From an uncultured Clostridia bacterium (GTDB taxonomy: Bacteria; Bacillota; Clostridia; Oscillospirales; JAAYOS01): a stretch of 64,000 bases of DNA. The translations under genes and the position numbers were made by a program. Below are positions 2,520 through 59,206 of the stretch, in pieces; the stretch's first letter is position 1; each line of letters begins with the position of its first letter. The DNA is taken from the NCBI GenBank assembly GCA_947593925.1, contig CANQDU010000005.1:48571-112570 (forward strand). The letters are read 5' to 3'. The notes beneath the pieces were generated by a model that saw nothing but the letters and a program-made list of their open reading frames with translations, was not told the origin of the DNA and did not search any database.

Positions 2520-5500
2520 TTACTTCACGATATTCTCGCAGAAGCGCATGAGTATCGTCGCTATCTGCGCGCGGATTGCTCCGCCGGACGGTGAGAGTGT
2601 CGTCGCGGTAGTGCCGCCGATGAGCTCTGTGCCAACGGCCCAGCTCATCGGGGCGGTCGCGTAGCTCTGGACGCTCGCGGCGTCGGTGTAGCCGGCGAGG
2701 CTTGCGGTAGTCGTGACGTCGTACTTCTTGTACGTGGCGTAGCGGTACAGGATGGTCGCGGCTTCCTCACGGGTGAGGTCGCGGTCGGGGCGGAAGGTTC
2801 CGTCGCCGTAGCCGCCGACTATCTCATTCGCCGCCGCCCAGTTGATTGCGTCGCTGTACCACTCGCCCGCCGCAACATCGCTGAACGGTATATTCTTCGT
2901 CACGGCGGGCTCGCCGTCGAGACGGTAGAGGATAGTCACGAGCATCGCGCGGTTGGTCTGGTCGTTCGGCGCAAAGTCAGTCTCGCTCACGCCGTTCATG
3001 AGCCCGTTCTTCACGACGTAGTTGATGGCGTCAACATACCACGCGGTCTGGTCGACGTCATAGAACCTCGTGGACGGCGCGGGACGGAACGACGGATAGG
3101 TCGGAGTGGTGGACGGCTCGGCCGGCTGCTCCTCGGAAGGCAGAGTGCCGCGCGTGATGTTGATGGTGTAGGTCTGTCCGTTGTATTCGATCTCCACCGT
3201 GTTCACGCTGTTGTTGACAAGGTCGATCCGATAAGAAATAGCAGAACCGGCTCCTGTATTTGCCACTTCCTCGCCGCCCAAAGTCACGGTCAAGCCCCCT
3301 GTGCCGGCCGAAGTAGTAGTCTCCGGGATGAGGTTGAGGCTCTCCACGTCGCTCCCTACGCTGATGTTATAGGTCGAAGTTGCGGGTGTGAAGTTTTCAA
3401 GGCTAGTGATCTCTCCGCTGTTGTCGATCTGAATGTTCTTGATGCATTTAATCGCCTCAAAGAGGAAGGGAGAGTAGCCCTCATGGTTATTGATGTAGGT
3501 CACGGTGCCGTCACTCTGGATTTGCAGATACTGCGGGTCAAGCGGTACTTCATTGTGGGTGTGCGTGACCTTGATCCAGTCGCCTGCTTTGCCCATAAAA
3601 TCAGGCATGGGCACCACAATGTAGGTGGGCTTGGTGCTCTCATAATTCACCCAGCCGTTATCATGGCTGTCGGTCGGCCTGATTATGGCGGAGTTCTGTC
3701 CTTCAGAGCTTCCGCCTTCGGTCTTGATGGCGTCCGGGTCGGCCTGATTGGAGGCCACCACGCGGTACTGGAAGTCAATATTAAGCTCGATCTTTCGTTT
3801 ACCGATTTCTTCGTTGTTTTTGGCTTCCGTGACGCTGATTTTAGTCTGGGTCTGAATGTGGCGGTAGACGTTGGCTTGATCGGTAACGCCCGCAGTTGTA
3901 AGGGCTTCTTGCAGCTTAACCACGCTATATTGACCGGCTCCATCCGCAGTCACATGACCGAGCATTTCGCTCACGGCATCGTCGTCCATCACTACGTTTA
4001 CTTTGTTGACATCAGTATACACGGTATTATTCTCATCCGCGACTGTCTTGGGGGCGTCGATAACGGTGTTGCCGCTGTCGTTCTTGATAACGAACACGGC
4101 GCTGACGTAGACAGGGGAGGTGTCAGGCAGAGTGAAAGTAAATGTTGTGCCACTGCCGTTGACACCTTCTACCGGGGTATTGGTGCCATAGTAGACGGAC
4201 GGCTTATCACCGGCCAACGAGTTGCCGGTATTGGGTGTGACGGTGACGGTCACAGCAGCGCCGTGCTTGACGGAGTAGACGTTGTCAAGAATCTTCGTCA
4301 CACCCTCGCCGCTGAGCGTCACGGTGCCGCCCAAGGTGGGTTCAACATAGACGATGCCGTTGACGGTGACTTTGACACTGGCGATTTTGTTCGGGTCATA
4401 GACAGACGTGCAGGTGACGGTGGCTTCACCCGGCTTGAGGCCGGTGATCACGCCGTTTTCCACGCTGACAATATCTTTACCCGCTTCATCTACCGACCAA
4501 GTGACCTCTTTATTGGCGGTGTCCGGGGTGATCGTGGGTGTGACCGTGGCCGTCTCGTTGACGTTGACGGTGACCTCCGGCTTGTCCAGTTTCAGGCTGT
4601 CTACTTTTTCAGAGGCGGTGGCGGTCAACGTGTTGGAGGTCAGCTCAAAATTTTTGAGCTTGGTCTGCACGTCCTTGGCGGCCTGGAGCATATCCGTCAG
4701 GGTCATGCTCTTACCGTACTTTTCATACCACGCATCATCGGATGAAATCAGATAGCGGACGAACTCGTCGGCGGTGAAAGCGGCCTTACCTTCATCGGAA
4801 TTATCAGCTTTGTGAGCCTGCGTGAAGTCCATCTTGCCGGTGACGGTGACGGTGGTGCCGGTGATCGGGCCGGAATAGTCATCTACCACCTTGGTGGGGA
4901 TTTGGACGGTCATCTCGCTGGAACTGTATTTGTCCCAGTCAAGGTCGATGGTAAACTTCTGAGCGCCGTCGAGTTTGGCCTTGATGGTGTGCGTGTTGTC
5001 GCCCTCCTGCACATCGTCGTCCCCAAGAGGCTGGCCGCCCACCTCAACGCCGGTGATCTTCAAAGAGGCGTTGCTGACGGTGATGGTGGTAAAGTCATCC
5101 TCATCCGCCGCGGGAATAAGGTGATCGTCTAGCTTCACGTTGATCTTGACGTCGGCAAAGTTCTCGTTGTCCACTGACTTGAAATATTTACCTCCGCTGC
5201 TCCAAGGCATATCGGAGGAGCTGAACAGGTCGGAGAACTTCATGCTGACCTCATAGGTAAGAGCTCCCGTCGCGTCCGTGGTGACAGACTCAAACCCGAA
5301 CGCGCTGCCGGTGGTCTTCTGCTGGAGCTTCACGGGTACGCCGCCCACCTCGTTATAAACGCTGAGCAGGGGCACTTCGGGAATGGACCCGGCGGCGGTC
5401 TCGGTCAGGGTGATTTCCTTCCAGTCCGCCTTGAGGGTAGTGGCGGCGTCGACCTCATACGAGTCGTAGAGATCGGCTACCTTATTCCCTTGGCCGTTGA

Positions 5501-17702: not shown

Positions 17703-17710
17703 CGCGCTGC

Positions 17711-18007
17711 GCAATTCCCAAACGCTCCAGAGGAGCGTTTGGGAGCCCTTCCGATTGAAATGCTCGGCGGAAATGAATTCCGCCTGCGCGAAGTTGGCGG
17801 CTGCGCCGCCAACTTTAACCGCGCGAACAGGCGCGGGAGCGCCTTCGGCGGAAAATCGACGCAATTCCCAAACGGTCGGTAGACCGTTTGGGAGCCCTTC
17901 CGATTGAAATGCTCGGCGGAAATGAATTCCGCCTGCGCGAAGTTGGCGGCTGCGCCGCCAACTTTAACCGCGCGAACAGGCGCGGGAGCACCTTCGGCGC
18001 TCGACGC
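17711..18007. repeat. Modular multi-hairpin intergenic repeat, two tandem ~150-bp units (forward orientation)
   Basis: Unit 1 is 17711-17860, unit 2 is 17861-~18007. Each has hairpins H1 cccaaacg..cgtttggg, H2 ggcggaaatgaattccgcc, H3 gttggcggctgcgccgccaac, H4 ccgcgcgaacaggcgcgg. Confidence 0.9.
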
Positions 18008-26886: not shown

Positions 26887-27371
26887 TTTCGCGGGAAATC
26901 ACGCTCGCTTCGCAATTCCCACGCGGTCAGAGACCGCGTGGGAGCCCTTCCGATTGAAATGCTCGGCGCAAATGAATTGCCCCTGCGCGAAGTTAGCGGC
27001 TTTGCCGCCAACTTCAACCGCGCGAACCGGCGTGGAGCCGCCTTCGGCGGAAAATCGACGCACGCTGCGCGAGAAGTATTTTCGGCGACGTACACGCCGC
27101 CGCCGAAAATAAATTTGACTTTATTTCGCCGCTTACGCGGCGAAACTCTGCGAGGCTTGATTACATCGTCCGCGCCGGTTTGCGCGGTTGATGTTGCCGC
27201 AGGCAACATCGCGCAGGCATATTAAGCACTGTGTTTGGCATTGCCCGCGAAGCGGGCAATGCTCACGAGGGCTGAACAGGTGCCGATGAGGAACGTGTTG
27301 GCGCCCTCGTGTTTCCGAGCGAGCATTTCAATCGGAAGGGCCCCCCAAACGGTGCGAAGCACCGCTTGGGG
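26887..27371. repeat. Modular multi-hairpin repeat, composite locus (forward unit, extension modules, inverted unit)
   Basis: Forward H1-H4 unit 26911-27058, modules M5-M7 to about 27160, then H4', H3', extra hairpins and H1' in inverted orientation to 27371. Confidence 0.85.
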
Positions 27372-27435
27372 ATATATTGTGTTGTGCGGCGAAATGTGGT
27401 AACATATAAACTGCAAAAAGAAAGGGGTGTCTGCC

Positions 27436-30688: not shown

Positions 30689-31016
30689 GGCGAGGGCAGT
30701 AAAATGTCGGATGAGGAATGATTGCGTGCCCTCGCGACTTCCGCGCCTGTTCGCGCGGTGAAGTTGGCGGCAAAGCCGCCAACTTCGCGCAGGGGCAATT
30801 CATTTGCCCCGAGCATTTTAATCTAAGGGGTCCCCAAACGGTTCCAACGGAACCGTAGAACCGTACTTCCGCGCCGGTTCGCGCGGTTGAAGTTAGCGGC
30901 ACAGCCGCTAACTTCGCGCAGCCGGAATTCATTTCCGGCGAGCATTTTAATTTAAGAGCACCAAACGGCCTCCCGGCCGTTTGGTGCGGCGGAGCGCCGC
31001 CGAAGGCGGCGCGGAG
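30689..31016. repeat. Modular multi-hairpin repeat, two tandem units in reverse orientation
   Basis: H4' ccgcgcctgttcgcgcgg, H3' gttggcggcaaagccgccaac, H2' ggggcaattcatttgcccc, H1' ccccaaacgg..; second unit cgcgccggttcgcgcgg, gttagcggcacagccgctaac, gccggaattcatttccggc, caccaaacggcctcccggccgtttggtg. Confidence 0.85.
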
Positions 31017-46166: not shown

Positions 46167-46712
46167 TTAGCGTCCGAGGCGGCGCGATATGTCGTCGAGC
46201 TTCGCGTTAGCGTCGGCAGTGCTCGAGGCGATGTTCTTCACGTTCTTCGCGAGATCGAGGAAGATCATCGTTCCCGCTATCAGAAGAAACGACATGAATG
46301 TGCCGACAATGATGGTGAGTATCCCCGAGATCACCATTCCGCCGTTGTAGTAGTAGGGGTTCGACGCGCTCAATATCTGCACCACGCCGCCTATCACCAC
46401 CGCCAGCTCGACTATCACAAACAGTATCCACGTTATGACGCGCATGAAAGCTATCCAGCCGCCGCCCTTGCCGTGCCTCGAGGTGTCCTCGGGTATGTAC
46501 TGCGGGTACTGCACCGGCGCGGCGTACTGCGGCTGCGGGCGGTATCCGTACGGCGGCTGTTGCGGCTGCGGCTGGTACTGCTGCGGCTGATATGTCTGCC
46601 GGGGCTGTCCGTACTGCGGCTGCGGCTCGGCCTGCGGCTGGTACTGCTGCGGCTCGGTCTGCGGCTGAGTCTCTGCCGGCTGTTCCGCGACCTCGTTCCT
46701 GTTTTCGTCCAT
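46167..46712 (-). CDS. Hypothetical membrane protein with Gln/Pro/Tyr-rich N-terminal region
   Basis: 181 aa from MDENRNEV (ATG after ggaagggagaag). PQ(Q)Y repeats, then 3 hydrophobic helices and a short charged tail. Confidence 0.6.
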   Translation of the reverse strand: MDENRNEVAEQPAETQPQTEPQQYQPQAEPQPQYGQPRQTYQPQQYQPQPQQPPYGYRPQPQYAAPVQYPQYIPEDTSRHGKGGGWIAFMRVITWILFVIVELAVVIGGVVQILSASNPYYYNGGMVISGILTIIVGTFMSFLLIAGTMIFLDLAKNVKNIASSTADANAKLDDISRRLGR

Positions 46713-46861
46713 AAGCTCTTCTCCCTTCCATGCGGGCAAAGTGCCCGACCTTGCATAAAGTATACTTCTTTCCGGGAAACATGTCAATAAATTTTGCAAA
46801 TCGGCGCTGTGCGGGCGGTTTTCCGCCCGCACAGCGCTATAGTTTATGGGAGGGATAAAGT

Positions 46862-48043
46862 ATGACAAAAAGACGCGCAAACGGTGAGGGCTCCATCTAT
46901 CGCCGCCGGGACGGACTGTGGACGGCGCAGTTCACAGCGCCGGACGGCCGGCGGCGGTATCTCTACGCTCACACCCGGACGGAGGCGGCGGCGCTGCTGC
47001 GGAGCGCGGCGGCGTCCCCGCCGCCGGCGGACACGCGAACGCTCGGCGAGTGGCTTTCGGAGTGGCTCGAGGTGTACGTCCGGCCGACGGTGCGTCCGCG
47101 CACCTACGCCGCGTATCACGCGGAGCTGTACGGCCACATCGTCCCGGCGCTCGGCGAGACGCCGCTGTACCTTCTCCGGGAGGAGGCGCTCCAGCGCTTC
47201 CTCGCTCGGGAGCTCGGCCGGTTCGCGCGCTCGACCGTCTCGCACCTGCGGACGCGCCTCCAGACCTCGCTGCAAAAGGCGGCGGATCTCGGCTACATCG
47301 AGAAGAACCCGGCGGCGCGGCTCGTCCTGCCTCCGGCGGACAAGCCCGAGCGGCTGGTCTTTTCGCCGGAGGAACAGCGGCGGTTCGAGCTCGCGGCGAT
47401 GAGCCGGTTCGGGCGTCAGTGGCTCGCCGCCGTGCCGGTGCTTCTGCTCCGCACCGGCCTGCGGATTGGGGAGGCGCTGGGTCTGCGGCTCGAGGACATT
47501 GACCTCGAGCGGAAGGAGCTGCGCGTGCGGCGGACGGTCGGGCGCGTCCGCGCGCCGGGGACGGGGCATGCGCCGATATGCGAGGGCGAGCCGAAGACGC
47601 GGCAGAGCCGCCGCACCGTCCCGATAGACACGTTCACGGCGGAGCTGCTGCGCGCGGCGATGCTCCGCCGCGCCGAGATGATCCGGCGGTCGGCAGAGCG
47701 GTGGCGCGCGTCGCCGCGTTGGGACGGGACGTGGCTCGAGCGCGGCTTCCTCTTCCTCACGAGCACCGGCGCGCTGTCGGACGGTACCGATATCCGCCGC
47801 CTGCTCCGCTCTGTCGAGGACGAGGCGGGCCTGCCGCCGGTCACTCTGCACGGCCTCCGCCACACGTTCGCTACGCGCTGGGTGGAGAGCGGGCTGGACA
47901 TCAAGAGCCTGAGCGAGCTTCTCGGCCACTCGGACACGCAGATGACGCTCAACATCTATACGCACTCGCTGCCGGGGCAGAAGCGCGCGTGCGTTGACCG
48001 GCTCGCGGAGCTGCTGTACGGCGGGGCGACGGCGTCGCTGTAA
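46862..48043 (+). CDS. Tyrosine-type site-specific recombinase/integrase (orphan; candidate invertase of the adjacent locus)
   Basis: 393 aa. N-terminal arm-type-binding-like RANGEGSIYRRRDGLWTAQF. Catalytic R (LLLRTGLRIGE), HxxR (HGLRHTFAT), H..Y (LGHSDTQMTLNIYTH) all intact. SD gggaggg precedes the ATG. Confidence 0.9.
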   Translation: MTKRRANGEGSIYRRRDGLWTAQFTAPDGRRRYLYAHTRTEAAALLRSAAASPPPADTRTLGEWLSEWLEVYVRPTVRPRTYAAYHAELYGHIVPALGETPLYLLREEALQRFLARELGRFARSTVSHLRTRLQTSLQKAADLGYIEKNPAARLVLPPADKPERLVFSPEEQRRFELAAMSRFGRQWLAAVPVLLLRTGLRIGEALGLRLEDIDLERKELRVRRTVGRVRAPGTGHAPICEGEPKTRQSRRTVPIDTFTAELLRAAMLRRAEMIRRSAERWRASPRWDGTWLERGFLFLTSTGALSDGTDIRRLLRSVEDEAGLPPVTLHGLRHTFATRWVESGLDIKSLSELLGHSDTQMTLNIYTHSLPGQKRACVDRLAELLYGGATASL

Positions 48044-48205
48044 AGTCGCTGTATTCGCCGGGGCGCGAGACCCGCGCGGCGGCGGCGTTTCGGCGGCTGT
48101 GTGCGGAGAAAGCGCGGCGGGCGGCTGTAAAACCGTCCTCCGGGCGCGGCGGGCGGCGCGCGAAACCGGCGAAAAATCCCTCCCGAATGATTTTTTGCAG
48201 GACAC

Positions 48206-48687
48206 GGCAGGAGTGTCATGCCAAAAAATCTTACAGGAGGAAAAGAACACATGAAGAACCTGAAGAAAGTTCTGTCCCTGGCTCTTGCGTTTGCGATGGT
48301 GCTGGGCCTGTGCGTCGGGGCTATGGCCGCGCAGGACGTCACCAAAGCCGGAGACTGGGCAGACGTCACCAACAAGGACGCGGCTCAGCTTCTGAACGCG
48401 TTCAACATCATGGCGGGCGACGACAAGGGCAATTTCAACCCCGCTAACAACGTCACCCGTGCAGAGGCCACCAAGATGATCGCTGTCGCTCTTTGGAGCG
48501 GCGAGGATCTCAAGGACTGGTTCAAGGACAGCACCACCACCTTTACCGACGTTCACAGCGCCGACTGGTTTGCCGGCTACGTTAACTACGCCGTGACCAC
48601 CGGCATCGTCGGCGGCCGTAACGCCACCACCTTCGACCCGAAGGGCAACGTCACCGGCTACGAGCTGCTGAAGATGACCCTTACCGC
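48206..48687. repeat. Outer inverted repeat, left arm (482 bp)
   Basis: Exact reverse complement of 53934-54415 (checked line by line), with mismatches immediately outside both ends. Contains the 45-nt leader, AGGAGG, the start codon and codons 1-145. Confidence 0.97.
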
Positions 48688-51100
48688 GCTCGGCTACAAG
48701 CAGGACGTTGAGGGCCTCATCGGCGCCAACTGGAAGGTCAACACCATGCGCCTCGCCATCGGCGGCAATGACCTCGCCGACCTGACCAAGGACGTCAAGG
48801 TCACCAGCTGGGACACTCCGATCAGCCGTGACAATACCGCTAAGGTCGTCGCTAACATGATCGGCCGCGCCACCGTCAAGTATGACCGTGACGGCTATCT
48901 CGTTGTCAACACCAAGACTGAAAACGACGAAACCGTTAACGTGACCTTCGGCGCGCAGTACCTCGGCGTCACGACCAAGACCGGCGTTCTCGTTGCCAAC
49001 ACCTACGGCACGATGAATTCGAGCGTGCTCGGAGCAACTACTGGCGCCGCCGTCTACAAAGTTAAGGATGCCGACCACTTTAATGCGGTTGTTCAGCCGA
49101 TGAAGGACGGCAAGATCGATGGTGATCCGATCGATGTCAACAGCGACAGCGGCCTGTTCGCGCTCGGTTCCAATGCCACCGTTTATCTCTCCAACGGCGT
49201 CGCGATTTCGACGGTCGTCACTCCCGCTGCGGCTATCAACGATCCCTATGCTAAGTTTGATACCGACACCAACGGCGATAAGGCCGTTAAGACGATCACC
49301 GTCGGCCCCGCCACCGGAGATACCGCGTATAATGCTTCCTTCAATTTCGATACTAACGCGAACGGCAAGTACGATCTCACGATAACCGTTAAGTTCGCGA
49401 CTATCAAAGAAGTCAAGGACGTTGTCGAGACCAAGAACTTCGGCACTGTCTATCAGACCGAGGGCGTCGCTTGGCGTGACCTCTATGACAAGGAAGGCGA
49501 GAAGCTCCGCAGCGGCTTCACCACCTTGAAGACGATAGCCGGCGACGCGCCTGCCAAGGGCGATCAGATCATGTATTCCACGGTCAAAAATGCCAGCGAT
49601 AAGGACGTCACCATCGGCGTTGCACTTGATGCGACCGAGGGCAAGGTCACCCGTATCAACGGCTCCACTTACTACATTGACGGCGTTGCACACTCCATCG
49701 GCACCAAGACCAGCGGTACTACTAGTGATGCCGCTTGCGTAACGCTCACCTTCGGCACCGCCGCTACCTTCTACACCTATCCGGGCTCGACCGAAATAGT
49801 CTTGACCGGCGATGTTAAGACCGAGGCGGTCAAGGTCGCGCTCATCTATGACGCGGGTTACACCCCCGGCACTGAAGGCACCGGTCTTGACGCCACCACG
49901 ACCAAGCCGGTCGTCGAAGTCGCGGCTATCCTGCCGGACGGCACTCCGGGCACCTACGTTCTCGTTTCTGCCCCCAAGGATACGAGTACTAACTACGATC
50001 TTACTACGGAAGCCGGTATAGCGGATGCCTTTGGCAACAGTGGCGCTCTCACTGATCTGAACAGCAAAGCTTGGACGGTCAAAACAACGCCTGAGGCCAC
50101 CACCATTGAGGCGGGCAATGATGCCAAGAACTACATCGTTGAGTACACGCTTACTGATGACGGCTACATGAAGATCACCAAGATCGAGAAGCTTGATGAC
50201 ACGAACGTGATCAAGGGCGGCGAGAAGGGTACTGCCATCACCACCAGCACCACGAGCGTCAAGGTTGGCGATGATAGCAAGGTCATCACCCCCGATACCG
50301 TAACCTTCATCCAGACCTCGATAAAGAAGGATACTGACACTACCGAGAAGTGGACCGCCTATGTCGGCAGAACCGCCAGCTACACCATTAAGGCCGGCAA
50401 TAACAACGAAGACGGCGCAGTACAGGTGGTGCTCACCGACTACACCAGCGAGAAGGACGCGGCCGCCGTCAAGTACGCGCTTGTCGAGTACAAGGACTGC
50501 GATCAGAACGTCGGAACCAAGTCCGACTTCTACTATGTCATCGCCGTTAACGGCCAGATCGGTGATAGCAAGTACGAGTACGTCGTCTATGACGCGAGCG
50601 CGGACGAGGTCAAGACCATCACCACTGAAGACGACAAAGTTAGTGGTACAGCTATAGCGAAGGGCGACTTCTACACCACGTATGACGGCAAGAAGTTCTC
50701 GGAAAAGCAGAACTCCGCATGGGTGGTAGCTGCAAATACGGGCTATGTCACGAGCTTCAAGGACAACATACTCGTTATTACCGGCTACAGCGATAAGGCT
50801 AATACGACGGACAAGAAGTATCCGTTCGACCAGGTCAAGACTATCGCGGTCGATAACGACACGAAGTATTACTTCCTCGGCGACGACAAGACCAGCGCGA
50901 AGATAACCGCCGCTGATGTTGTCGCGCAGGCTCCGTCCAAGGAGCCGACCTTGGACACGACCAAGGATCCGAATGTGCTCACCACTCCGTATCAGGCGAT
51001 CGTTATAGCGAGCACCACAAAGACCGGTTACGCTTCTACCGTCATCGTCTTTGAGGCGGAGCAGAGCTACACGACCAACGTTACTACCTCCGGTCGTTAA
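48251..51100 (+). CDS. SLH-anchored S-layer-type surface protein, cassette A (949 aa)
   Basis: ATG 48251 is 10 nt after aggagg. Signal peptide MKNLKKVLSLALAFAMVLGLCVGAMA. N-terminal SLH repeats (NAFNIMAGDDKGNFNPANNVTRAEATKMI.., FTDVHSADWFAGYVNYAVTTGIVGG..). Thr/Val/Gly/Asp-rich beta-type body. Confidence 0.9.
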   Translation: MKNLKKVLSLALAFAMVLGLCVGAMAAQDVTKAGDWADVTNKDAAQLLNAFNIMAGDDKGNFNPANNVTRAEATKMIAVALWSGEDLKDWFKDSTTTFTDVHSADWFAGYVNYAVTTGIVGGRNATTFDPKGNVTGYELLKMTLTALGYKQDVEGLIGANWKVNTMRLAIGGNDLADLTKDVKVTSWDTPISRDNTAKVVANMIGRATVKYDRDGYLVVNTKTENDETVNVTFGAQYLGVTTKTGVLVANTYGTMNSSVLGATTGAAVYKVKDADHFNAVVQPMKDGKIDGDPIDVNSDSGLFALGSNATVYLSNGVAISTVVTPAAAINDPYAKFDTDTNGDKAVKTITVGPATGDTAYNASFNFDTNANGKYDLTITVKFATIKEVKDVVETKNFGTVYQTEGVAWRDLYDKEGEKLRSGFTTLKTIAGDAPAKGDQIMYSTVKNASDKDVTIGVALDATEGKVTRINGSTYYIDGVAHSIGTKTSGTTSDAACVTLTFGTAATFYTYPGSTEIVLTGDVKTEAVKVALIYDAGYTPGTEGTGLDATTTKPVVEVAAILPDGTPGTYVLVSAPKDTSTNYDLTTEAGIADAFGNSGALTDLNSKAWTVKTTPEATTIEAGNDAKNYIVEYTLTDDGYMKITKIEKLDDTNVIKGGEKGTAITTSTTSVKVGDDSKVITPDTVTFIQTSIKKDTDTTEKWTAYVGRTASYTIKAGNNNEDGAVQVVLTDYTSEKDAAAVKYALVEYKDCDQNVGTKSDFYYVIAVNGQIGDSKYEYVVYDASADEVKTITTEDDKVSGTAIAKGDFYTTYDGKKFSEKQNSAWVVAANTGYVTSFKDNILVITGYSDKANTTDKKYPFDQVKTIAVDNDTKYYFLGDDKTSAKITAADVVAQAPSKEPTLDTTKDPNVLTTPYQAIVIASTTKTGYASTVIVFEAEQSYTTNVTTSGR

Positions 51101-51118: not shown

Positions 51119-51164
51119 CAACACACACGTTAAAACGCTTTGGCATGGCGTGAAAACCTGCAAA
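51119..51164. repeat. Inner inverted repeat, left arm (46 bp, 1 mismatch)
   Basis: caacacacacgttaaaacgctttggcatggcgtgaaaacctgcaaa is the reverse complement of 51599-51644, except 51152 g vs a. Starts 19 nt after the cassette A stop. Confidence 0.9.
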
Positions 51165-51170
51165 TGAGGA

Positions 51171-51200
51171 GCGCCCCCGAGCCGCAAGGCTCGGGGGCGC
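51171..51200 (+). terminator. Hairpin after cassette A (weak T-tract)
   Basis: GCGCCCCCGAGCC gcaa GGCTCGGGGGCGC followed by CTTCGTG. Confidence 0.45.
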
Positions 51201-51228
51201 CTTCGTGCGCGCGAGGGGGAGCGAGTGC

Positions 51229-51304
51229 GCGGGACACACAGCGCGGGACACACAGCGCGGGACACACAGCGCGGGACACACAGCGCGGGACACACAGCGC
51301 GGGG
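51229..51304. repeat. 14-bp tandem repeat, 5.4 copies
   Basis: (gcgggacacacagc)x5 then gcgggg. Intergenic, between the two convergent cassettes. Confidence 0.95.
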
Positions 51305-51564
51305 GGTGCGCGCCGCATCTGCGGCGCGCACGGCGGCGCGGCGGCGACGAGGCCGGGCGCGGAGCCGCATGCTCGCGGGTGCGGGCGGGTCTGTGCGGCG
51401 CTGAGAGCTCCGTTCCGCCGCCGCACCGCCGCAGGACGCGCCCGTGGCCACGGGCGCGTCCTGCGCCCCCGCGCGCCCCGCAACCCCCGCGCTTCGCTCT
51501 GTCCGGCGGCTCCGCAGGGCACAGGCTGCGGGCAAAGCCCGCAGCCTGTGCCCTACGCGCGCAA

Positions 51565-51597
51565 AAGCCGCCTCGGGCAAAATGCCCGAGGCGGCTT
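51565..51597 (-). terminator. Intrinsic terminator after cassette B
   Basis: Minus strand AAGCCGCCTCGGGCA ttt TGCCCGAGGCGGCTT followed by TTGCGCGC. Confidence 0.7.
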
Positions 51598-51598
51598 C

Positions 51599-51644
51599 TT
51601 TGCAGGTTTTTACGCCATGCCAAAGCGTTTTAACGTGTGTGTTG
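51599..51644. repeat. Inner inverted repeat, right arm (46 bp)
   Basis: Reverse complement of 51119-51164 with one mismatch. Ends 11 nt from the cassette B stop codon. Confidence 0.9.
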
Positions 51645-51655
51645 CTGTGAGGGAC

Positions 51656-54370
51656 TTACTCGGCGGCCTTCGCAACAGCCGGCTGCTCCTCAACAAAGAG
51701 GATGACGGTATCGGCAATATTGTCAGTGCCGACAACGACGATCGCCTGATACGGCGGCGCCTGGTCATCGTCCTTGGGCAGATTGGCCGGGGTCTGAGCG
51801 ATAACGTCAGCGGCGGTTATCTTCTCGCTGTTGGTCTCATCGCCGAGGACATAATACTTCGTGTCGGTATCGACAACGATAGCCTTAAGGGTGCCGTAGT
51901 CCTTATATCCGTTCTCCTGCGCATTCTTTGCGAAACCGGAGAGAACGAGGATATTGTCGGCAACACTGGTGACATAGCCCTTATTGTCATCGGTAAACAC
52001 CTTCGGCTCGCTAAATGTCAATCCATCATACCCGCCGTAGAAGTCGCCCTTCTTGACATTCGCACCGCCGGTAAGGCTCGTAGTGACGGTCTTGACTTCG
52101 TCCGCGCTCGCGTCATAGACGACGAACTCGCGCTTGTCATCAGCGATCTGGCCGTTAACAGTGATGACATAGTAGAAGTCGGATTCAGTCGGGGCAGCTT
52201 CGCCAAGAGCAGCCTTAGTGACAACTGCATACTTAACGGAGGCGTTCTCTATTCCGTTGTAGATACCGAGAACAACGCTTACGCTACCCTGCTTCGCAAT
52301 GGTGTAAGCGTGCCTGCCGGTGTAAGCAGCCCACTCCTCGGCGCCGGTCGTTTCATCCTTCTTGGTCTGGACGAAAGTGACGGTATCGGAGGTGATCAGC
52401 TTAACGCCAGCCGCAGTACCACCAGTAACTGTAACGTTCGTAGTGGTCGCCTTAATATCAAGGCCATCATTGCCACCGGCAATTGTTCCGTTATACGGAA
52501 CAGCTTCGGTTATCGTCATGTTGTCGTTCTCATCAAGAGTGTACTTGACGATATAGTTGGTGTCGCCACCCTTTGCATTATTAAGCGTGAGGCCACTCTT
52601 GCTATTGCTAGCAGCGCTCCAATCGTTGCCGTTCAGACCAAACAGATTCTGGCTCTGGGTATTGAAAACCGTCGAGATCTCAGCGTCTTTGGTAAGATCG
52701 TGATTACCGAACTTGGTAACGACATAGTTGCCCGGAGTGCCGTCCGGCAGGATAGCGGCGACGGTGACGACAGAATTAGTCGCGGTTGCGCCAAGGCTAG
52801 TACCCTTGTTGCCAGGGGTCAAACCTGCGTCATAGAGGAGCGCGACCTTGCCATCCGACTTCGCGGTCAGATCCTCGTCAAGAATGATGGTCGAGCCCGG
52901 ATAGGTGTAGAAGACGCCGGTAGCACCGAAGGTGGGCTTATCACCCGCGCCGATGCTGTACTTAGTGCCGTTAATGTAGTAGTCATTGCCGTTGATGCGG
53001 CTGACGGAGCCCTCGACGGTCTCGAGCGCAACGCCTACGTTAACGGGCGTGCCGGCAGCGTCCGTGGACTCGGCGTACATGATCTTGTCGCCCTTAGCAG
53101 GAGCGGTACCGGCTATTGTCTTCATGGTGGTGAAGCCGGTGTGAATGTTCGTGTTAGGCTTGTCATAGAGGTCGCGCCAAGCCGCAGCAGCGTTGGTCTG
53201 ATAGACGGTGCCAAAGTTCTCGGTCTCGACAACATCGTAAACGTCAGAAATGGCCGAGAACTTGACGGTTATCGTGAGATCGTACTTGCCACTCGCATCA
53301 GTATCGAGATTGAAATCAGCACTATACGCGGGAACAGTGGCGGTGCCAATGGTGACGGACGTGACATCCTTTGCTCCCTCAGTATTGGTGTCATACTTAT
53401 CGGTGTCGCTGATGGCCGTGGCCGGAGTGACGGCTACCGAGATCGGGGTTCCGTCCTTCTTATAAACGACGACCTTGGAGCCGAGCTCGAACAGTCCGCT
53501 GTCGCTATTGACATCAAAGGCGTCTGCAGGCGCTCCGTCCTTGGGGAGAACAACAGCGTTGTACTTCGTGCTGTCCTTTACCGCATATGCAGTGTTGCTC
53601 CCATAGGTCATTGCGCCGTAAGCGTTGGCAACGAGGGTGCCCTCAGTTCTAGCAAGGCCGAGGTAATAGGTGCCGAAAGTAACGACATCGTCAGCATCCT
53701 TCCCGGGGATATTCCCAACGAGTCCGGTCGTGGGGTTATAAGTGACGGGGGTACGCTCGACCATATTGGCTATGACCTTCGCGGTGTTGTCGCGGTCGAT
53801 CGCGAGATCCCAGTTGGTGACCTTGACGTCCTTGGTCAGATCCTTCTGGCCCCTGCTGCCGATGGCGAGGAGCATGGTGTTGACCTTCCAGTTGGCGCCG
53901 ACGAGACCCTCTTTGTTCTGGTCGTAACCAAGAGCGGTAAGGGTCATCTTCAGCAGCTCGTAGCCGGTGACGTTGCCCTTCGGGTCGAAGGTGGTGGCGT
54001 TACGGCCGCCGACGATGCCGGTGGTCACGGCGTAGTTAACGTAGCCGGCAAACCAGTCGGCGCTGTGAACGTCGGTAAAGGTGGTGGTGCTGTCCTTGAA
54101 CCAGTCCTTGAGATCCTCGCCGCTCCAAAGAGCGACAGCGATCATCTTGGTGGCCTCTGCACGGGTGACGTTGTTAGCGGGGTTGAAATTGCCCTTGTCG
54201 TCGCCCGCCATGATGTTGAACGCGTTCAGAAGCTGAGCCGCGTCCTTGTTGGTGACGTCTGCCCAGTCTCCGGCTTTGGTGACGTCCTGCGCGGCCATAG
54301 CCCCGACGCACAGGCCCAGCACCATCGCAAACGCAAGAGCCAGGGACAGAACTTTCTTCAGGTTCTTCAT
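51656..54370 (-). CDS. SLH-anchored S-layer-type surface protein, cassette B (904 aa)
   Basis: The first 149 aa are identical to cassette A, then a diverged paralogous body with conserved islands. Start ATG 54370 (same RBS as A); the upstream 22 codons of the track ORF are rejected. Confidence 0.9.
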   Translation of the reverse strand: MKNLKKVLSLALAFAMVLGLCVGAMAAQDVTKAGDWADVTNKDAAQLLNAFNIMAGDDKGNFNPANNVTRAEATKMIAVALWSGEDLKDWFKDSTTTFTDVHSADWFAGYVNYAVTTGIVGGRNATTFDPKGNVTGYELLKMTLTALGYDQNKEGLVGANWKVNTMLLAIGSRGQKDLTKDVKVTNWDLAIDRDNTAKVIANMVERTPVTYNPTTGLVGNIPGKDADDVVTFGTYYLGLARTEGTLVANAYGAMTYGSNTAYAVKDSTKYNAVVLPKDGAPADAFDVNSDSGLFELGSKVVVYKKDGTPISVAVTPATAISDTDKYDTNTEGAKDVTSVTIGTATVPAYSADFNLDTDASGKYDLTITVKFSAISDVYDVVETENFGTVYQTNAAAAWRDLYDKPNTNIHTGFTTMKTIAGTAPAKGDKIMYAESTDAAGTPVNVGVALETVEGSVSRINGNDYYINGTKYSIGAGDKPTFGATGVFYTYPGSTIILDEDLTAKSDGKVALLYDAGLTPGNKGTSLGATATNSVVTVAAILPDGTPGNYVVTKFGNHDLTKDAEISTVFNTQSQNLFGLNGNDWSAASNSKSGLTLNNAKGGDTNYIVKYTLDENDNMTITEAVPYNGTIAGGNDGLDIKATTTNVTVTGGTAAGVKLITSDTVTFVQTKKDETTGAEEWAAYTGRHAYTIAKQGSVSVVLGIYNGIENASVKYAVVTKAALGEAAPTESDFYYVITVNGQIADDKREFVVYDASADEVKTVTTSLTGGANVKKGDFYGGYDGLTFSEPKVFTDDNKGYVTSVADNILVLSGFAKNAQENGYKDYGTLKAIVVDTDTKYYVLGDETNSEKITAADVIAQTPANLPKDDDQAPPYQAIVVVGTDNIADTVILFVEEQPAVAKAAE

Positions 54371-54415
54371 GTGTTCTTTTCCTCCTGTAAGATTTTTTGG
54401 CATGACACTCCTGCC
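53934..54415. repeat. Outer inverted repeat, right arm (482 bp)
   Basis: Exact reverse complement of 48206-48687. Confidence 0.97.
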
Positions 54416-54424
54416 ACAATTCGG

Positions 54425-54453
54425 ATAATACACCACTTCCCCCCTTATTGCAA
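54425..54453 (-). promoter_or_regulatory. Candidate S-layer expression-site promoter
   Basis: Minus strand TTGCAA (54453-54448), 17 nt, TATTAT (54430-54425). The -10 box ends 9 nt outside the repeat arm. The flank 54481-54540 is about 32% GC by hand count. Confidence 0.6.
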
Positions 54454-54462
54454 GGGGGGAAG
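54436..54462 (-). terminator. Hairpin downstream of holB, overlapping the -35 box
   Basis: CTTCCCCCCTT / AAGGGGGGAAG 11-bp stem with a 5-nt loop. On the minus strand it is followed by TGGTGTATTAT. Confidence 0.45.
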
Positions 54463-54550
54463 CCGATTTGTAACATAAGTGTAATAGAAGCGATTTTTTG
54501 CAACTTTGGTGAAATATTGGGTTAGCGCATTAAAAAAGTTATATTTTAGT

Positions 54551-55297
54551 CTATATTAAGGACGCAATGAGCCACGAGGCGACCTGCGCGGGGGTCACAT
54601 TTGCTCTCAACATGTCCTCCGCGCGGGACGCGAGATCGGCTCCTCGAAGGGCGCGGGACGCGAGCTGCGGACTTGCCGCCGCCGCATTAGCCAGCGTGCT
54701 CCGCGCCTCTTCGAGTTTCCGAACGGCTCCGTCTCCTTTCAGCTTTGTAAACGGTGCGAACGCCTCCGTGAGCGCGCTCTTAGAGCGGACTCCGCGCACC
54801 AGCGCGCGGGCGAGCGCGCGGGCGTCTCCCTCCGGGGCAGCCGGCGCGGCCTCGTCCTCATCCTCCGCGCGGACAAGGCCGCAGCGCGAGCGGACGGTGC
54901 CGAGCAGCGCGCGCGAGTTTTCGCACACAAATATGAATATGCAGGGCGTGGGCGGCTCCTCGACCGTGGCGAGCAGGGCGTTCTGCGCCGCCGCGTTCAT
55001 CCCGTCCGCGCCGTGGACGAGGAAGACCTGGCGCGCCGCCTCGTTCGGCTTCACCTGCGCCGCCTCACGCATGGCGCGCGCGGACTCGATCTTTATCGCG
55101 CCGCGCTCGTCCGGCGTGACCTCGTGCAGGTCGGGGTGCGCGCGGCTGAGCGACTTGCGGCAGTCCTCACAGACGCCGCAGGGCGCGTCCGGCGCGGAAC
55201 ACAGCGCCTCCCGCGCGAGGCGGAACGCGAGAGCTTCGCGCGCGGCCTCGCTCCCGCCGGTCACGATATAAGCGTGAAGTCCGCCCAAAATGCCCAC
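54551..55297 (-). CDS. holB: DNA polymerase III delta' subunit
   Basis: 248 aa: HAYIVTGG, CGVCEDCRKSLSRAHPDLHEV (Zn module), QNALLATVEEPP. Sits next to the yaaQ homolog as in B. subtilis. Confidence 0.8.
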   Translation of the reverse strand: MGILGGLHAYIVTGGSEAAREALAFRLAREALCSAPDAPCGVCEDCRKSLSRAHPDLHEVTPDERGAIKIESARAMREAAQVKPNEAARQVFLVHGADGMNAAAQNALLATVEEPPTPCIFIFVCENSRALLGTVRSRCGLVRAEDEDEAAPAAPEGDARALARALVRGVRSKSALTEAFAPFTKLKGDGAVRKLEEARSTLANAAAASPQLASRALRGADLASRAEDMLRANVTPAQVASWLIASLI

Positions 55298-59007: not shown

Positions 59008-59206
59008 CGGCCTCGCAGAGTTTCGCCGAAGCCGCTTCCGCGCCTGTTCGCGCGGTTGAAGTTGCTTGCCTTGGCAAGCAACTTCGCGCAGGGCGATTCA
59101 TTCGCCCGAGCACGTTTATTCGGAAGGGCTCCCACGCGGTCGCTGACCGCGCGGGAAATTGGTAAGGGGCAGACGAAGTCTGCCCCCGCGATTTCCCGCG
59201 AAAGTT
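59008..59206. repeat. Modular multi-hairpin repeat, one unit in reverse orientation plus H0
   Basis: M7' cctcgcagagtttcgccg, H4' ccgcgcctgttcgcgcgg, H3' gttgcttgccttggcaagcaac, H2' gggcgattcattcgccc, H1' cccacgcggtcgctgaccgcgcggg, H0 cgcgggaaat..ggggcagacgaagtctgcccc..atttcccgcg. Confidence 0.85.

What the first reader, a model, noticed from the sequence alone, without database searches (positions are those of the whole stretch)
54416..54550. Only the right junction carries a recognisable promoter: a fixed expression site ending about 9 nt outside the repeat arm
On the minus strand, TTGCAA (54453-54448), 17 nt, then TATTAT (54430-54425) predicts a +1 near 54418, essentially at the arm boundary (54415). 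The whole leader, RBS and start codon are therefore inside the repeat, while the promoter is outside and unique. The flank is AT-rich (54481-54540 is 19/60 GC by hand count) in a GC-rich genome. An 11-bp-stem hairpin (54436-54462) overlapping the -35 box would insulate the site from holB read-through. In the present orientation cassette B (51656-54370) is the expressed copy. This geometry is what a one-promoter, two-cassette switch needs.
Basis: partly seen in the sequence, partly recalled or inferred. Interest (0 to 1): 0.7.

Follow-up and report, generated by a model that had tools for sequence, protein, structure and literature searches.

The report
Fixed promoter of an S-layer switch
An uncultured rabbit-gut Clostridia bacterium has two alternative cell-surface (S-layer) protein genes facing each other beside a recombinase gene, and only the one next to holB sits behind a conserved promoter, which is the layout of a known kind of DNA-inversion switch for changing the cell coat.

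Summary
TTGCAA (54453-54448), a 17-nt spacer and TATTAT (54430-54425) lie on the minus strand, 9 nt outside the inverted-repeat arm (edge 54415). A -26 kcal/mol hairpin covers the -35 box, and the flank is AT-rich.

A 9/12 match alone is weak. However, the same geometry recurs in two other lineages with different flanks: TGTTACAAAT, 12 nt, -35, 17 nt, -10, 8-9 nt, GGCAG. Recombinase-side junctions give no promoter hit in two lineages.

The locus reads: tyrosine recombinase, SLH S-layer gene A (+), SLH gene B (-), promoter, holB. The recombinase is syntenic down to 53-55% identity. The cassettes are hypervariable between strains. Their 3' modules are position-swapped between this genome and a relative with about 91% identical flanks, which suggests a past inversion.

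Not shown:
- the transcription start;
- present-day switching, since four assemblies of this strain share one orientation;
- any insulating role for the hairpin, which is lineage-specific.

The 482-nt perfect arm identity is not reproduced in three other assemblies of the strain, where it is 108 nt.

Verdict: a new member of a known kind, working like Lactobacillus acidophilus slpA/slpB and Mycoplasma vpma. Interest is moderate.

The parts
46862..48043 (+). Tyrosine recombinase gene (393 aa), Tn1549/Tn916-Int-like, directly upstream of the left arm
   Evidence: Pfam Phage_integrase 3.7e-26 plus Phage_int_SAM_3. Closest solved structure is the 'Int protein' of 6emy, with the R, K, HxxR, H and Y motifs aligned. 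Syntenic homologs at 53-55% identity.
48037..48131 (+). Two direct GCTGTAAA octamers (48037-48044 and 48124-48131) in the recombinase-to-cassette spacer; candidate accessory (arm-type) binding sites
   Evidence: Two copies 87-91 nt apart in the same spacer in the window, L005, L007, L014, L021 and L022. One copy lies just after the integrase of a phage-like relative, L013. The function is inferred.
48044..48205 (+). Left (recombinase-side) junction: GC-rich, with no promoter-like or terminator-like site facing cassette A
   Evidence: Searches give no + strand hit. The fold is not unusual, z = +1.0.
48206..48887 (+). Left inverted-repeat arm: 45-nt leader, signal peptide and SLH region of cassette A
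   Evidence: (I1). The perfect run is 482 nt in this assembly but 108 nt in L023.
48206..48222 (+). 17-nt imperfect palindrome GGCAGGAGTGTCATGCC at the outer edge of the arm (left copy); candidate recombination core and/or 5'-terminal mRNA element
   Evidence: Only two copies in 64 kb at up to 3 mismatches, against 0.17 expected. Conserved as GGCAGGAGGGTCATGCC in L007, L014, L019, L020 and L021 while the rest of the leader differs.
48251..51100 (+). Cassette A: SLH-domain S-layer protein, 949 aa, at the promoter-less position
   Evidence: Pfam SLH 5.8e-18. 58% identical to B.
51119..51164 (+). Conserved 46-nt 3' element of cassette A, containing GGCATG-N9-CCTGC (51142-51161), the reverse complement of the halves of the 5' core
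   Evidence: I7, 98%; the motif occurs exactly 4 times in the window, 0.18 expected. The same feature is in L014.
51166..51206 (+). Terminator-type hairpin T1 after cassette A
   Evidence: Fold. The T1 type is shared with L005 right and L006 left.
51563..51598 (-). Terminator-type hairpin T2 after cassette B, with a U-run
   Evidence: Fold. The T2 type is shared with L005 left and L006 right.
51599..51644 (-). Conserved 46-nt 3' element of cassette B (motif at 51602-51621)
51656..54370 (-). Cassette B: SLH-domain S-layer protein, 904 aa, at the promoter-proximal (expression) position
   Evidence: Pfam SLH 8.8e-18. Holds the same position in L023, L024 and L025.
53734..54415 (-). Right inverted-repeat arm
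   Evidence: Positions 54027-54307 differ from other assemblies of the same strain.
54371..54415 (-). 45-nt leader of the expressed copy: core motif 54415-54399 and RBS AGGAGG 54386-54381
   Evidence: Read directly from the sequence.
54425..54453 (-). Predicted sigma-70/sigma-A promoter: -35 TTGCAA (54453-54448), 17 nt, -10 TATTAT (54430-54425). Predicted +1 at about 54417-54420.
   Evidence: The same spacing, and the same distance to GGCAG, are found in L020 (TTGCAA-17-TATCAT) and L027 (TTGACT-17-TATAGT). Alignment A2.
54435..54463 (-). Hairpin over the -35 box, specific to this lineage
   Evidence: Conserved in L005 and L006 but absent from L020 and L027.
54466..54475 (-). TGTTACAAAT, invariant and exactly 12 nt upstream of the -35 box in all expression-type flanks; candidate UP element or activator site
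   Evidence: Alignment A2. It is the only exact copy in the window.
54551..55297 (-). holB-like gene (DNA polymerase III delta'), upstream neighbour on the same strand
   Evidence: Pfam DNA_pol3_delta2 2.9e-35.

Best explanation
The segment 54425-54475 on the minus strand is the housekeeping-sigma promoter of the S-layer gene expression site in an uncultured rabbit-gut Clostridia bacterium. It has a conserved upstream element (TGTTACAAAT), a -35 box (TTGCAA) and a -10 box (TATTAT). Transcription is predicted to start 2-5 nt outside, or at, the edge of the inverted repeat. The whole leader, the RBS, the start codon and the signal peptide therefore belong to the repeat, and the promoter does not. 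The locus holds two full-length, convergent SLH-domain S-layer genes, A and B, with identical 5' ends. A domesticated Tn1549/Tn916-type tyrosine recombinase is encoded directly beside the promoter-less junction. Recombination between the two 5' arms would invert the roughly 6.2-kb segment and place the other variable body behind the fixed promoter. The most likely site is the conserved motif GGCAGGAG(T/G)GTCATGCC at the arm edge, or the roughly 108-nt perfectly identical leader and signal-peptide stretch. In the orientation sequenced, B is the expressed coat protein, and A is silent or only weakly read through from the recombinase gene. Shown: the sequence features, their conservation, the recombinase synteny, the cassette hypervariability and the swap of 3' modules between relatives. 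Inferred: the start site, the identity of the recombination site, the dependence on the recombinase and present-day switching.
For: (1) Promoter hit TTGCAA-17-TATTAT, 9 nt from the arm. (2) The same architecture is the single hit at the equivalent place in a lineage whose recombinase is 55% identical and whose upstream gene differs (L020). It is also the single hit upstream of a single-copy S-layer gene (L027). Alignment A2 shows TGTTACAAAT, the -35 and -10 positions, and the GGCAG start invariant while the surroundings differ. (3) No inward promoter hit at the recombinase-side junctions of the window, L019 or L014. (4) An intact tyrosine recombinase lies adjacent. The order hpt-ftsH-small ORF-recombinase-SLH gene is kept at 53-55% identity, whereas homologs at 42-48% identity are integrases of phage-like elements. 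(5) The outer arm boundary is identical in the window, L005 and L006. L006 has leader substitutions shared by both of its arms, which indicates concerted evolution. (6) Flanks are about 91% identical between the window and L005, but the cassette bodies are only 31-49% identical in amino acids. (7) The 3' modules (stop-codon linker type plus terminator type) are left a/T1 and right b/T2 in the window, but left b/T2 and right a/T1 in L005. This is what an inversion of the inter-arm segment would give. (8) RNA contigs show the shared arm at depths of 75-290, far above its neighbours. A B-like body (97% identity) is transcribed in a related strain, and no A-like body is seen at 97% or more. (9) Precedents: L. 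acidophilus slpA/slpB inversion (PMC3666127), Mycoplasma vpma with Xer1 (PMC2268961) and SLH proteins enriched among predicted gene-altering inversions (PMC9881135).
Against: No transcription start has been mapped. The only RNA data are assembled contigs from related strains, and they stop at the start codon. No present-day inversion was seen: the window and L023, L024/L001 and L025 all have B next to holB. Contigs that join the recombinase flank to the other cassette (L015, L016) come from k=31 graphs. They cannot carry linkage across a 121-nt exact repeat, so they are not evidence. The swap in L005 could also reflect an assembler mis-orienting the segment between repeats, or independent cassette replacement. 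The promoter match is only 9/12, has no TG extension, and its -35 box lies inside a strong palindrome. No promoter-like site precedes the recombinase gene itself.
Confidence: 0.65

Rival explanations
1. The promoter is real but there is no programmed switch. A is a promoter-less paralogue that serves as a reservoir for gene conversion, or is simply a duplicate. The arm identity comes from RecA-dependent conversion and from selection on the signal peptide and SLH anchor. The recombinase has another job or is a relic.
For: All four assemblies of this strain have the same orientation. The only differences between assemblies inside the locus are a patch of 32 substitutions and a 3-nt indel within the right arm, which looks like conversion or assembler collapse. 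A and B are each other's closest relatives within a genome, as are the two L006 cassettes.
Against: The recombinase is intact and stays next to the cassette pair across lineages with 53-55% identity. A is a complete gene with RBS, signal peptide, 3' element and terminator. The 3' modules are swapped between the window and L005. A conserved motif sits exactly at the arm edge.
Confidence: 0.2
2. Both cassettes are expressed. B uses the promoter at 54453-54425. A is expressed by read-through from the recombinase gene or from a promoter type that the scan does not cover. The cell would then carry two S-layer proteins or regulate them differentially.
For: No terminator-like site lies between the recombinase stop codon and cassette A, and that spacer shows no unusual structure. 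A has a full RBS and start codon inside the arm. Expression of two S-layer genes at once is known in some lactobacilli (PMC3666127).
Against: No promoter-like site faces A in two lineages. The recombinase gene has no recognisable promoter and follows a 16-bp hairpin, so read-through should be low. RNA contigs give no coverage at 48026-48235 and no A-like body at 97% or more, though the strain sampled may differ.
Confidence: 0.1
3. The TTGCAA/TATTAT pair is a chance match in AT-rich DNA. The hairpin is the holB terminator, or a palindromic operator, and the S-layer mRNA starts elsewhere.
For: The match is 9/12 only, and about 2 such hits are expected per 7 kb. A stronger 10/12 site lies on the opposite strand at 54402-54429. 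The scan also calls the hairpin terminator-like.
Against: The spacing, the hexamer positions and the distance to GGCAG are kept in L020 and L027, where the flanks and the upstream gene differ and the hairpin is absent. The opposite-strand site is not kept in L020 (read from the sequence). No other minus-strand site exists between holB and the arm.
Confidence: 0.05

Closest known systems
Lactobacillus acidophilus slpA/slpB S-layer gene switch (Boot et al. 1996, as summarised in PMC3666127)
   Same: Two oppositely oriented S-layer genes on one chromosomal segment, with one active expression site. Inversion of the segment puts the silent gene behind the slp promoter. The silent gene was at the expression site in only 0.3% of chromosomes in culture, so a single orientation in assemblies is expected. 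S-layer mRNAs there are stabilised by the 5' UTR.
   Different: Lactobacillus S-layer proteins lack SLH domains and anchor through the C-terminus. The text I read mentions no dedicated recombinase next to that locus. Here a tyrosine recombinase is encoded at the silent junction, and the shared region covers the leader, signal peptide and SLH anchor.
Mycoplasma agalactiae vpma / M. bovis vsp / M. pulmonis vsa loci with Xer1, Mbr or HvsR (PMC2268961)
   Same: A single unique promoter. Silent genes share a conserved 5' UTR and signal peptide. The recombination site lies between the promoter and the start codon (-72 to -1). A tyrosine recombinase is encoded in the locus, and site-specific inversions place alternative genes behind the promoter.
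   Different: Those loci encode lipoproteins of wall-less bacteria, with six or more genes per locus and Xer-like recombinases. Here there are two SLH S-layer genes in a Firmicute, with a Tn1549-Int-like recombinase and a possible arm-type site pair. Site-specific action is not demonstrated.
Campylobacter fetus sap (S-layer) antigenic variation (from my own knowledge; primary papers not held)
   Same: S-layer protein cassettes with conserved 5' regions of several hundred bp, a single promoter, and DNA inversion that changes which cassette is expressed.
   Different: In C. fetus the promoter lies on the invertible element between divergent cassettes, and inversion depends largely on RecA. Here the cassettes are convergent, the promoter is outside the invertible segment, and a recombinase gene is adjacent.
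Gene-altering programmed inversions (Milman et al. 2023, PMC9881135), including shufflons and hsdS invertons
   Same: Inverted repeats inside coding sequences, one upstream part kept fixed, alternative downstream parts, and a recombinase gene nearby. [quoted passage not shown]
   Different: That paper gives the SLH family only as a statistical enrichment. Here both copies are complete genes with their own RBS and start codon, and the crossover region includes the 5' UTR.
Clostridioides difficile cwpV switch (RecV; PMC2784873, title and abstract seen)
   Same: Phase variation of a cell-wall protein in a Firmicute.
   Different: From my own knowledge, cwpV uses a short invertible element between the promoter and the gene that gates read-through (ON/OFF). 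It does not exchange two coding cassettes.

Membership tests
Sigma-70/sigma-A promoter | -35 and -10 hexamers close to TTGACA and TATAAT, with a 16-18 nt spacer | tested here: met
   TTGCAA-17-TATTAT, 9/12. The homologous sites are TTGCAA-17-TATCAT and TTGACT-17-TATAGT.
Sigma-70/sigma-A promoter | A transcript 5' end 6-8 nt downstream of the -10 box | not testable with these tools
   Only assembled RNA contigs are available, and they end at about the start codon.
Single-promoter surface-protein inversion switch (slpA/slpB, vpma/vsp/vsa type) | Two or more alternative genes in inverted orientation that share the 5' region | tested here: met
   Arms 48206-48887 / 53734-54415. The leader and signal peptide are identical. 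The same layout is in L005, L006, L014 and L023.
Single-promoter surface-protein inversion switch (slpA/slpB, vpma/vsp/vsa type) | Only one junction carries a promoter, and it lies outside the invertible segment | tested here: met
   By sequence prediction and conservation only. Not tested by expression.
Single-promoter surface-protein inversion switch (slpA/slpB, vpma/vsp/vsa type) | Both orientations occur within a strain or population | tested here: inconclusive
   Four assemblies of this strain share one orientation. The 3' modules are swapped in the relative L005. Raw reads or long reads were not available.
Single-promoter surface-protein inversion switch (slpA/slpB, vpma/vsp/vsa type) | A dedicated recombinase is required for switching | not testable with these tools
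   The gene is adjacent and syntenic. Dependence on it needs genetics.
Tyrosine recombinase (lambda Int / Tn916-Tn1549 Int type) | Catalytic domain with R, K, HxxR, H/W and the Y nucleophile | tested here: met
   Pfam Phage_integrase. The alignment to the 6emy Int protein shows TGLRIGE, EPKT, HGLRHTF, GHS and LNIYTH.
Tyrosine recombinase (lambda Int / Tn916-Tn1549 Int type) | Core site with inverted binding arms around a 6-8 bp overlap, plus arm-type sites for the N-terminal domain | tested here: inconclusive
   Candidate core: GGCAGG-N5-CATGCC, or GCAKGAC-N11-GTCATGC at the left junction. Candidate arm-type pair: GCTGTAAA twice. The spacers are atypical and no binding data exist.
Campylobacter fetus sap-type switch | Promoter carried on the invertible element between divergent cassettes | tested here: not met
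   The cassettes are convergent and the promoter is outside the arms.
Intrinsic terminator (the hairpin at 54463-54435 as holB terminator or insulator) | GC-rich stem followed directly by a U-tract, conserved where the function is needed | tested here: inconclusive
   The stem is strong and passes the lenient scan. However, the tail is GGUGUAUUAU, and the hairpin is absent from L020 and L027.
SLH-anchored S-layer protein | Signal peptide followed by N-terminal SLH domains and a large variable body | tested here: met
   Pfam SLH in both cassettes. Lattice formation was not tested.

The most novel reading that the evidence does not exclude
Each cassette is a discrete exchangeable module bracketed by two recombinase sites. 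[quoted passage not shown] It is found exactly four times in 64 kb, and again in a second lineage. A domesticated integrase with arm-type sites (GCTGTAAA twice) would then do more than invert the pair at the 5' sites. It would also recombine the 3' sites and allow whole-cassette replacement, in the manner of recombinase-mediated cassette exchange. This would explain why strains with about 91% identical flanks carry unrelated cassette bodies, and why L006 has terminators flipped relative to its cassette tails. The alternative reading of the same motif is 5'-3' UTR pairing that closes and stabilises the S-layer mRNA.
Probability: 0.15. Interest if true: 0.7.

Novelty: new member of a known kind. 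Interest (0 to 1): 0.45.

Why it matters
S-layers are the outermost coat of many Firmicutes. They are major phage receptors and immune targets. A recombinase-linked two-cassette switch in uncultured gut Clostridia would show that SLH-type coats undergo the same bet-hedging long known for lactobacilli, Campylobacter and mycoplasmas. It would give one worked example behind the statistical enrichment of SLH proteins among predicted programmed inversions.

The conserved promoter module (TGTTACAAAT, 12 nt, -35, 17 nt, -10, 8-9 nt, GGCAG) is also a practical marker for finding S-layer expression sites in related metagenomic genomes.

The concept is not new, and nothing here overturns current understanding.

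Tried and rejected
1. Public reads. All runs holding the locus are available only as k=31 Logan contigs. These break at the arm edges, so the orientation within the population could not be read.

2. RNA contigs from two metatranscriptomes (X12, X14). They come from related strains and stop near the start codon, so they give no transcription start.

3. Exact-protein look-ups of A, B, the recombinase and their relatives, to find the same cassette at both positions. B is not on record as 904 aa. Its 903-aa form is always next to holB, and A is always next to the recombinase.

4. Contigs L015 and L016. They join an identical 2.26-kb recombinase flank to the cassette that lies on the other side in L014. 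I first read this as proof of inversion. I rejected it because a k=31 graph holds no linkage across a 121-nt exact repeat.

6. Rfam: no family matches the leader, the 3' element or the spacer.

7. The 17-nt motif as a 5' RNA stem-loop. The leader fold is no better than shuffles (z = 0.0 and -0.8), so this stays open.

8. The opposite-strand promoter-like site at 54402-54429 (10/12). It is not kept in L020, so I did not take it as the main feature.

9. The 482-nt perfect arm identity as a sign of very recent recombination. It is not reproduced in L023, L024 or L025. Unitigs from the same sample hold both arm variants, so it may be assembler collapse.

Full report
**What is at the coordinates**

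On the minus strand the sequence reads ...TGTTACAAATCGGCTTCCCCCCTTGCAATAAGGGGGGAAGTGGTGTATTATCCGAATTGT|GGCAGGAGTGTCATGCCAAAAAATCTTACAGGAGGAAAAGAACACATG....
- The promoter scan reports TTGCAA (54453-54448), a 17-nt spacer and TATTAT (54430-54425), matching 9 of 12 consensus positions.
- The inverted-repeat arm ends at 54415, 9 nt after the -10 box.
- The 45-nt leader, the RBS (54386-54381) and the ATG (54370) lie inside the arm.
- The stretch 54481-54540 has 19 G+C in 60. The 54416-54550 spacer is 36% G+C, against 62% for the window.
- The hairpin at 54463-54435 folds at -26.1 kcal/mol, z = -5.0.

A 9/12 hit is not significant by itself. The scan finds 7 such sites in 7 kb against 2.2 expected. 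One of them is a 10/12 site on the opposite strand, at 54402-54429.

**The surroundings**

The order on the plus strand is as follows.
- A tyrosine recombinase gene at 46862-48043 (+), with Phage_integrase and Phage_int_SAM_3 domains.
- A GC-rich 162-nt spacer.
- Cassette A at 48251-51100 (+), 949 aa, with SLH domains.
- A 555-nt region holding two terminator hairpins and a 14-nt tandem repeat.
- Cassette B at 51656-54370 (-), 904 aa, with SLH domains.
- The AT-rich spacer.
- holB at 54551-55297 (-).

A and B are 58% identical overall and identical at the N-terminus. The recombinase aligns best with the 'Int protein' of PDB entry 6emy, with the catalytic R, K, HxxR, H and Y motifs in place. 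It is the strongest single argument that the inverted repeat is a switch and not merely a duplication.

**Source organism and relatives**

The sequence comes from a rabbit-gut metagenome. The nearest genomes are two MAGs labelled uncultured Clostridia bacterium, L005 and L006. Both have the same layout, with the recombinase, one SLH gene (+), one SLH gene (-) and holB. Their outer arm boundary is identical to the base.

L006 carries its own substitutions in the leader, and both of its arms share them. The arms therefore evolve in concert.

Recombinase homologs at 53-55% identity (P0006, P0008 and the L021/L022 loci) keep the gene order hpt, ftsH, small ORF, recombinase, SLH gene. Homologs at 42-48% identity are integrases of phage-like elements with portal, capsid and terminase genes. 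The recombinase thus looks like a domesticated mobile-element integrase.

**Is the promoter real? Comparative evidence**

A metagenome scan with the arm-edge motif returned both junctions of a P0006-like strain. L019 is the recombinase side and L020 is the other side, downstream of an unrelated gene. By its sequence and by the L023 annotation, that gene looks YmdB-like.
- L020 reads TGTTACAAAT, 12 nt, TTGCAA, 17 nt, TATCAT, 9 nt, GGCAGGAGGGTCATGCC. This is the only promoter hit there.
- A single-copy S-layer gene in a further lineage (L026/L027) reads TGTTACAAAT, 12 nt, TTGACT, 17 nt, TATAGT, 8 nt, GGCAG.... It is again the only hit.
- In alignment A2 the upstream decamer, the hexamer positions and the GGCAG after the -10 box are invariant, while the surroundings differ.
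- The recombinase-side flanks give no hit in the window, L019 or L014.

I therefore accept the promoter with about 85% confidence. The predicted start lies within a few nt of the arm edge.

The hairpin does not share this support. It is found only in the window, L005 and L006. In L020 the sequences flanking TTGCAA are not complementary. Its downstream tail, GGUGUAUUAU, is a poor U-tract. Its role as an insulator is unsupported. It could equally be a lineage-specific operator or the holB terminator.

**Is it a switch?**

There is no direct evidence of inversion within a population.
- All runs are stored as k=31 contigs, which break at the arm edges.
- Four assemblies of this strain have B next to holB: the window, L023, L024 with L001, and L025.
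- This is not strong evidence against switching. In L. acidophilus the silent gene occupies the expression site in only 0.3% of chromosomes (PMC3666127).
- Contigs L015 and L016 join an identical 2.26-kb recombinase flank to the cassette that lies on the opposite side in L014. They are k=31 graph contigs crossing a 121-nt exact repeat, so they carry no linkage. I discount them.

The better evidence is evolutionary. Each cassette ends with a stop-codon linker of type a or b, then a conserved 46-nt element, then a terminator of type T1 or T2.

| Genome | Left (recombinase side) | Right (expression side) |
|---|---|---|
| Window | a / T1 | b / T2 |
| L005 | b / T2 | a / T1 |
| L006 | b / T1 | b / T2, with an A-like coding tail |

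The window and L005 differ as expected after inversion of the whole inter-arm segment. L006 suggests an additional exchange at the 3' elements. Two caveats apply. Assemblers can mis-orient a segment between repeats, and the cassette bodies are too diverged (31-49% amino-acid identity) to confirm the swap along their length.

**The arm identity**

In this window the arms are perfectly identical for 482 nt. L023 is the same strain and matches the window over 18.7 kb apart from three kinds of difference: one missing 14-nt repeat unit, 32 substitutions and a 3-nt indel. The substitutions and the indel all lie at 54027-54307.

In L023 the perfect run is 108 nt. It is 126 nt in L005 and 121 nt in the L014 lineage. 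Unitigs from the sample that matches the window perfectly contain both arm variants. The long identity here is therefore either a recent conversion tract or an assembler choice. The robust shared unit is the leader plus the start of the signal peptide, as in the Mycoplasma vpma genes (PMC2268961).

**Candidate sites (inference)**

- The 17-nt imperfect palindrome GGCAGGAG(T/G)GTCATGCC sits at the outermost edge of the arm. It occurs only twice in 64 kb at up to 3 mismatches. It is kept in the 53-55% lineage, where the rest of the leader differs.
- Its two halves recur in reverse complement inside the 46-nt 3' element of each cassette. GGCATG-N(2-10)-CCTGC occurs exactly four times in the window, at the 5' and 3' ends of A and B, against 0.18 expected. 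The same is true in L014. This could mark recombination sites that bracket each cassette, or 5'-3' UTR pairing of a stable mRNA. The halves do not vary, so covariation cannot decide between the two.
- The recombinase-to-cassette spacer always holds two GCTGTAAA octamers 87-91 nt apart. One copy follows the integrase gene of a phage-like relative. These are plausible arm-type sites.

**Expression data**

In one metatranscriptome the shared arm reaches contig depths of 75-290, while the recombinase region is near zero. A B-like body at 97% identity is present, and no A-like body at 97% or more. The strain sampled differs from the window. This is therefore only weak support that a B-type cassette is the expressed one.

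**Comparison with known systems**

The locus works like the L. acidophilus slpA/slpB inversion. It also works like the Mycoplasma vpma, vsp and vsa loci. Those have a unique promoter, a conserved 5' UTR and signal peptide, and an adjacent tyrosine recombinase acting between the promoter and the start codon.

It differs from the C. fetus sap system, where the promoter is on the invertible element (my own knowledge).

Milman et al. list SLH-domain proteins among the families enriched near predicted gene-altering inversions. This locus is thus a concrete, anatomically resolved member of a kind already predicted.

**Verdict**

The promoter and the switch geometry hold. The start site and the present-day switching are untested. 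The insulator role of the hairpin is unsupported.
- Novelty: a new member of a known kind.
- Interest: 0.45.

Noticed in passing
window 51213-51317: A 14-nt tandem repeat, GCGCGGGACACACA, in about 6 copies, lies in the 80% GC spacer between the two cassette terminators. Another assembly of the same strain (L023) has one unit fewer, so the copy number varies.
   Followed up: partly
window 54027-54307 (mirror positions 48314-48594): Apart from one 14-nt repeat unit, all differences between this window and L023, L024 and L025 (same strain) are 32 substitutions and a 3-nt indel clustered in the right arm. Here the right arm copies the left arm. This is either a gene-conversion tract or assembler collapse, and unitigs from the same sample hold both variants.
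   Followed up: partly
window 48207-48222, 51142-51161, 51602-51621, 54399-54414: GGCATG-N(2-10)-CCTGC occurs exactly four times in 64 kb, once at the 5' end and once at the 3' end of each cassette, in alternating orientation. The same arrangement is in L014. It may mark recombination sites or 5'-3' mRNA pairing.
   Followed up: partly
window 48037-48044 and 48124-48131: Two GCTGTAAA octamers sit 87 nt apart between the recombinase stop codon and the left arm. The pair is kept (87-91 nt apart) in L005, L007, L014, L021 and L022. One copy follows the integrase of the phage-like element L013.
   Followed up: partly
window 54402-54429 (+) and 48219-48190 (-): Outward-facing promoter-like sites have their -35 box (ATGACA) inside the arm-edge motif. 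The right one matches 10/12 (ATGACA-16-GATAAT) and the left one 9/12. They would read antisense into holB and into the recombinase gene. The right one is not kept in L020.
   Followed up: partly
window 46780-46861: A 16-bp GC-rich hairpin (46803-46838, -38 kcal/mol) lies 23 nt before the recombinase start codon, and no + strand promoter hit lies upstream. The local pattern CAAATCGG, hairpin, TATAGT resembles the expression-site pattern CAAATCGG, hairpin, TATTAT.
   Followed up: no
window 17709-17842, 17860-17989, 26911-27036, 27320-27373, 30738-30841, 59033-59134: A dispersed repeat family of about 130 nt. It was detected because the inter-cassette spacer of L005 (6004-6137) matches all these places at about 80% identity.
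   Followed up: no
window 54466-54475: TGTTACAAAT lies exactly 12 nt upstream of the -35 box in every expression-type flank examined (window, L006, L020, L026, L027). GTTAC-like copies lie further upstream in L020 and L027. It may be an activator or UP-type element.
   Followed up: partly
window about 2583-3002 (-): A third, unrelated SLH-domain coding region is detected by tblastn with cassette A (26-34% identity over about 100 aa).
   Followed up: no
window 46500-46690: Degenerate 15-21-nt periodic repeats (CTGCGGCTG...) lie inside the small minus-strand ORF between ftsH and the recombinase gene. This ORF is conserved in position in L001, L007, L014 and L021.
   Followed up: no
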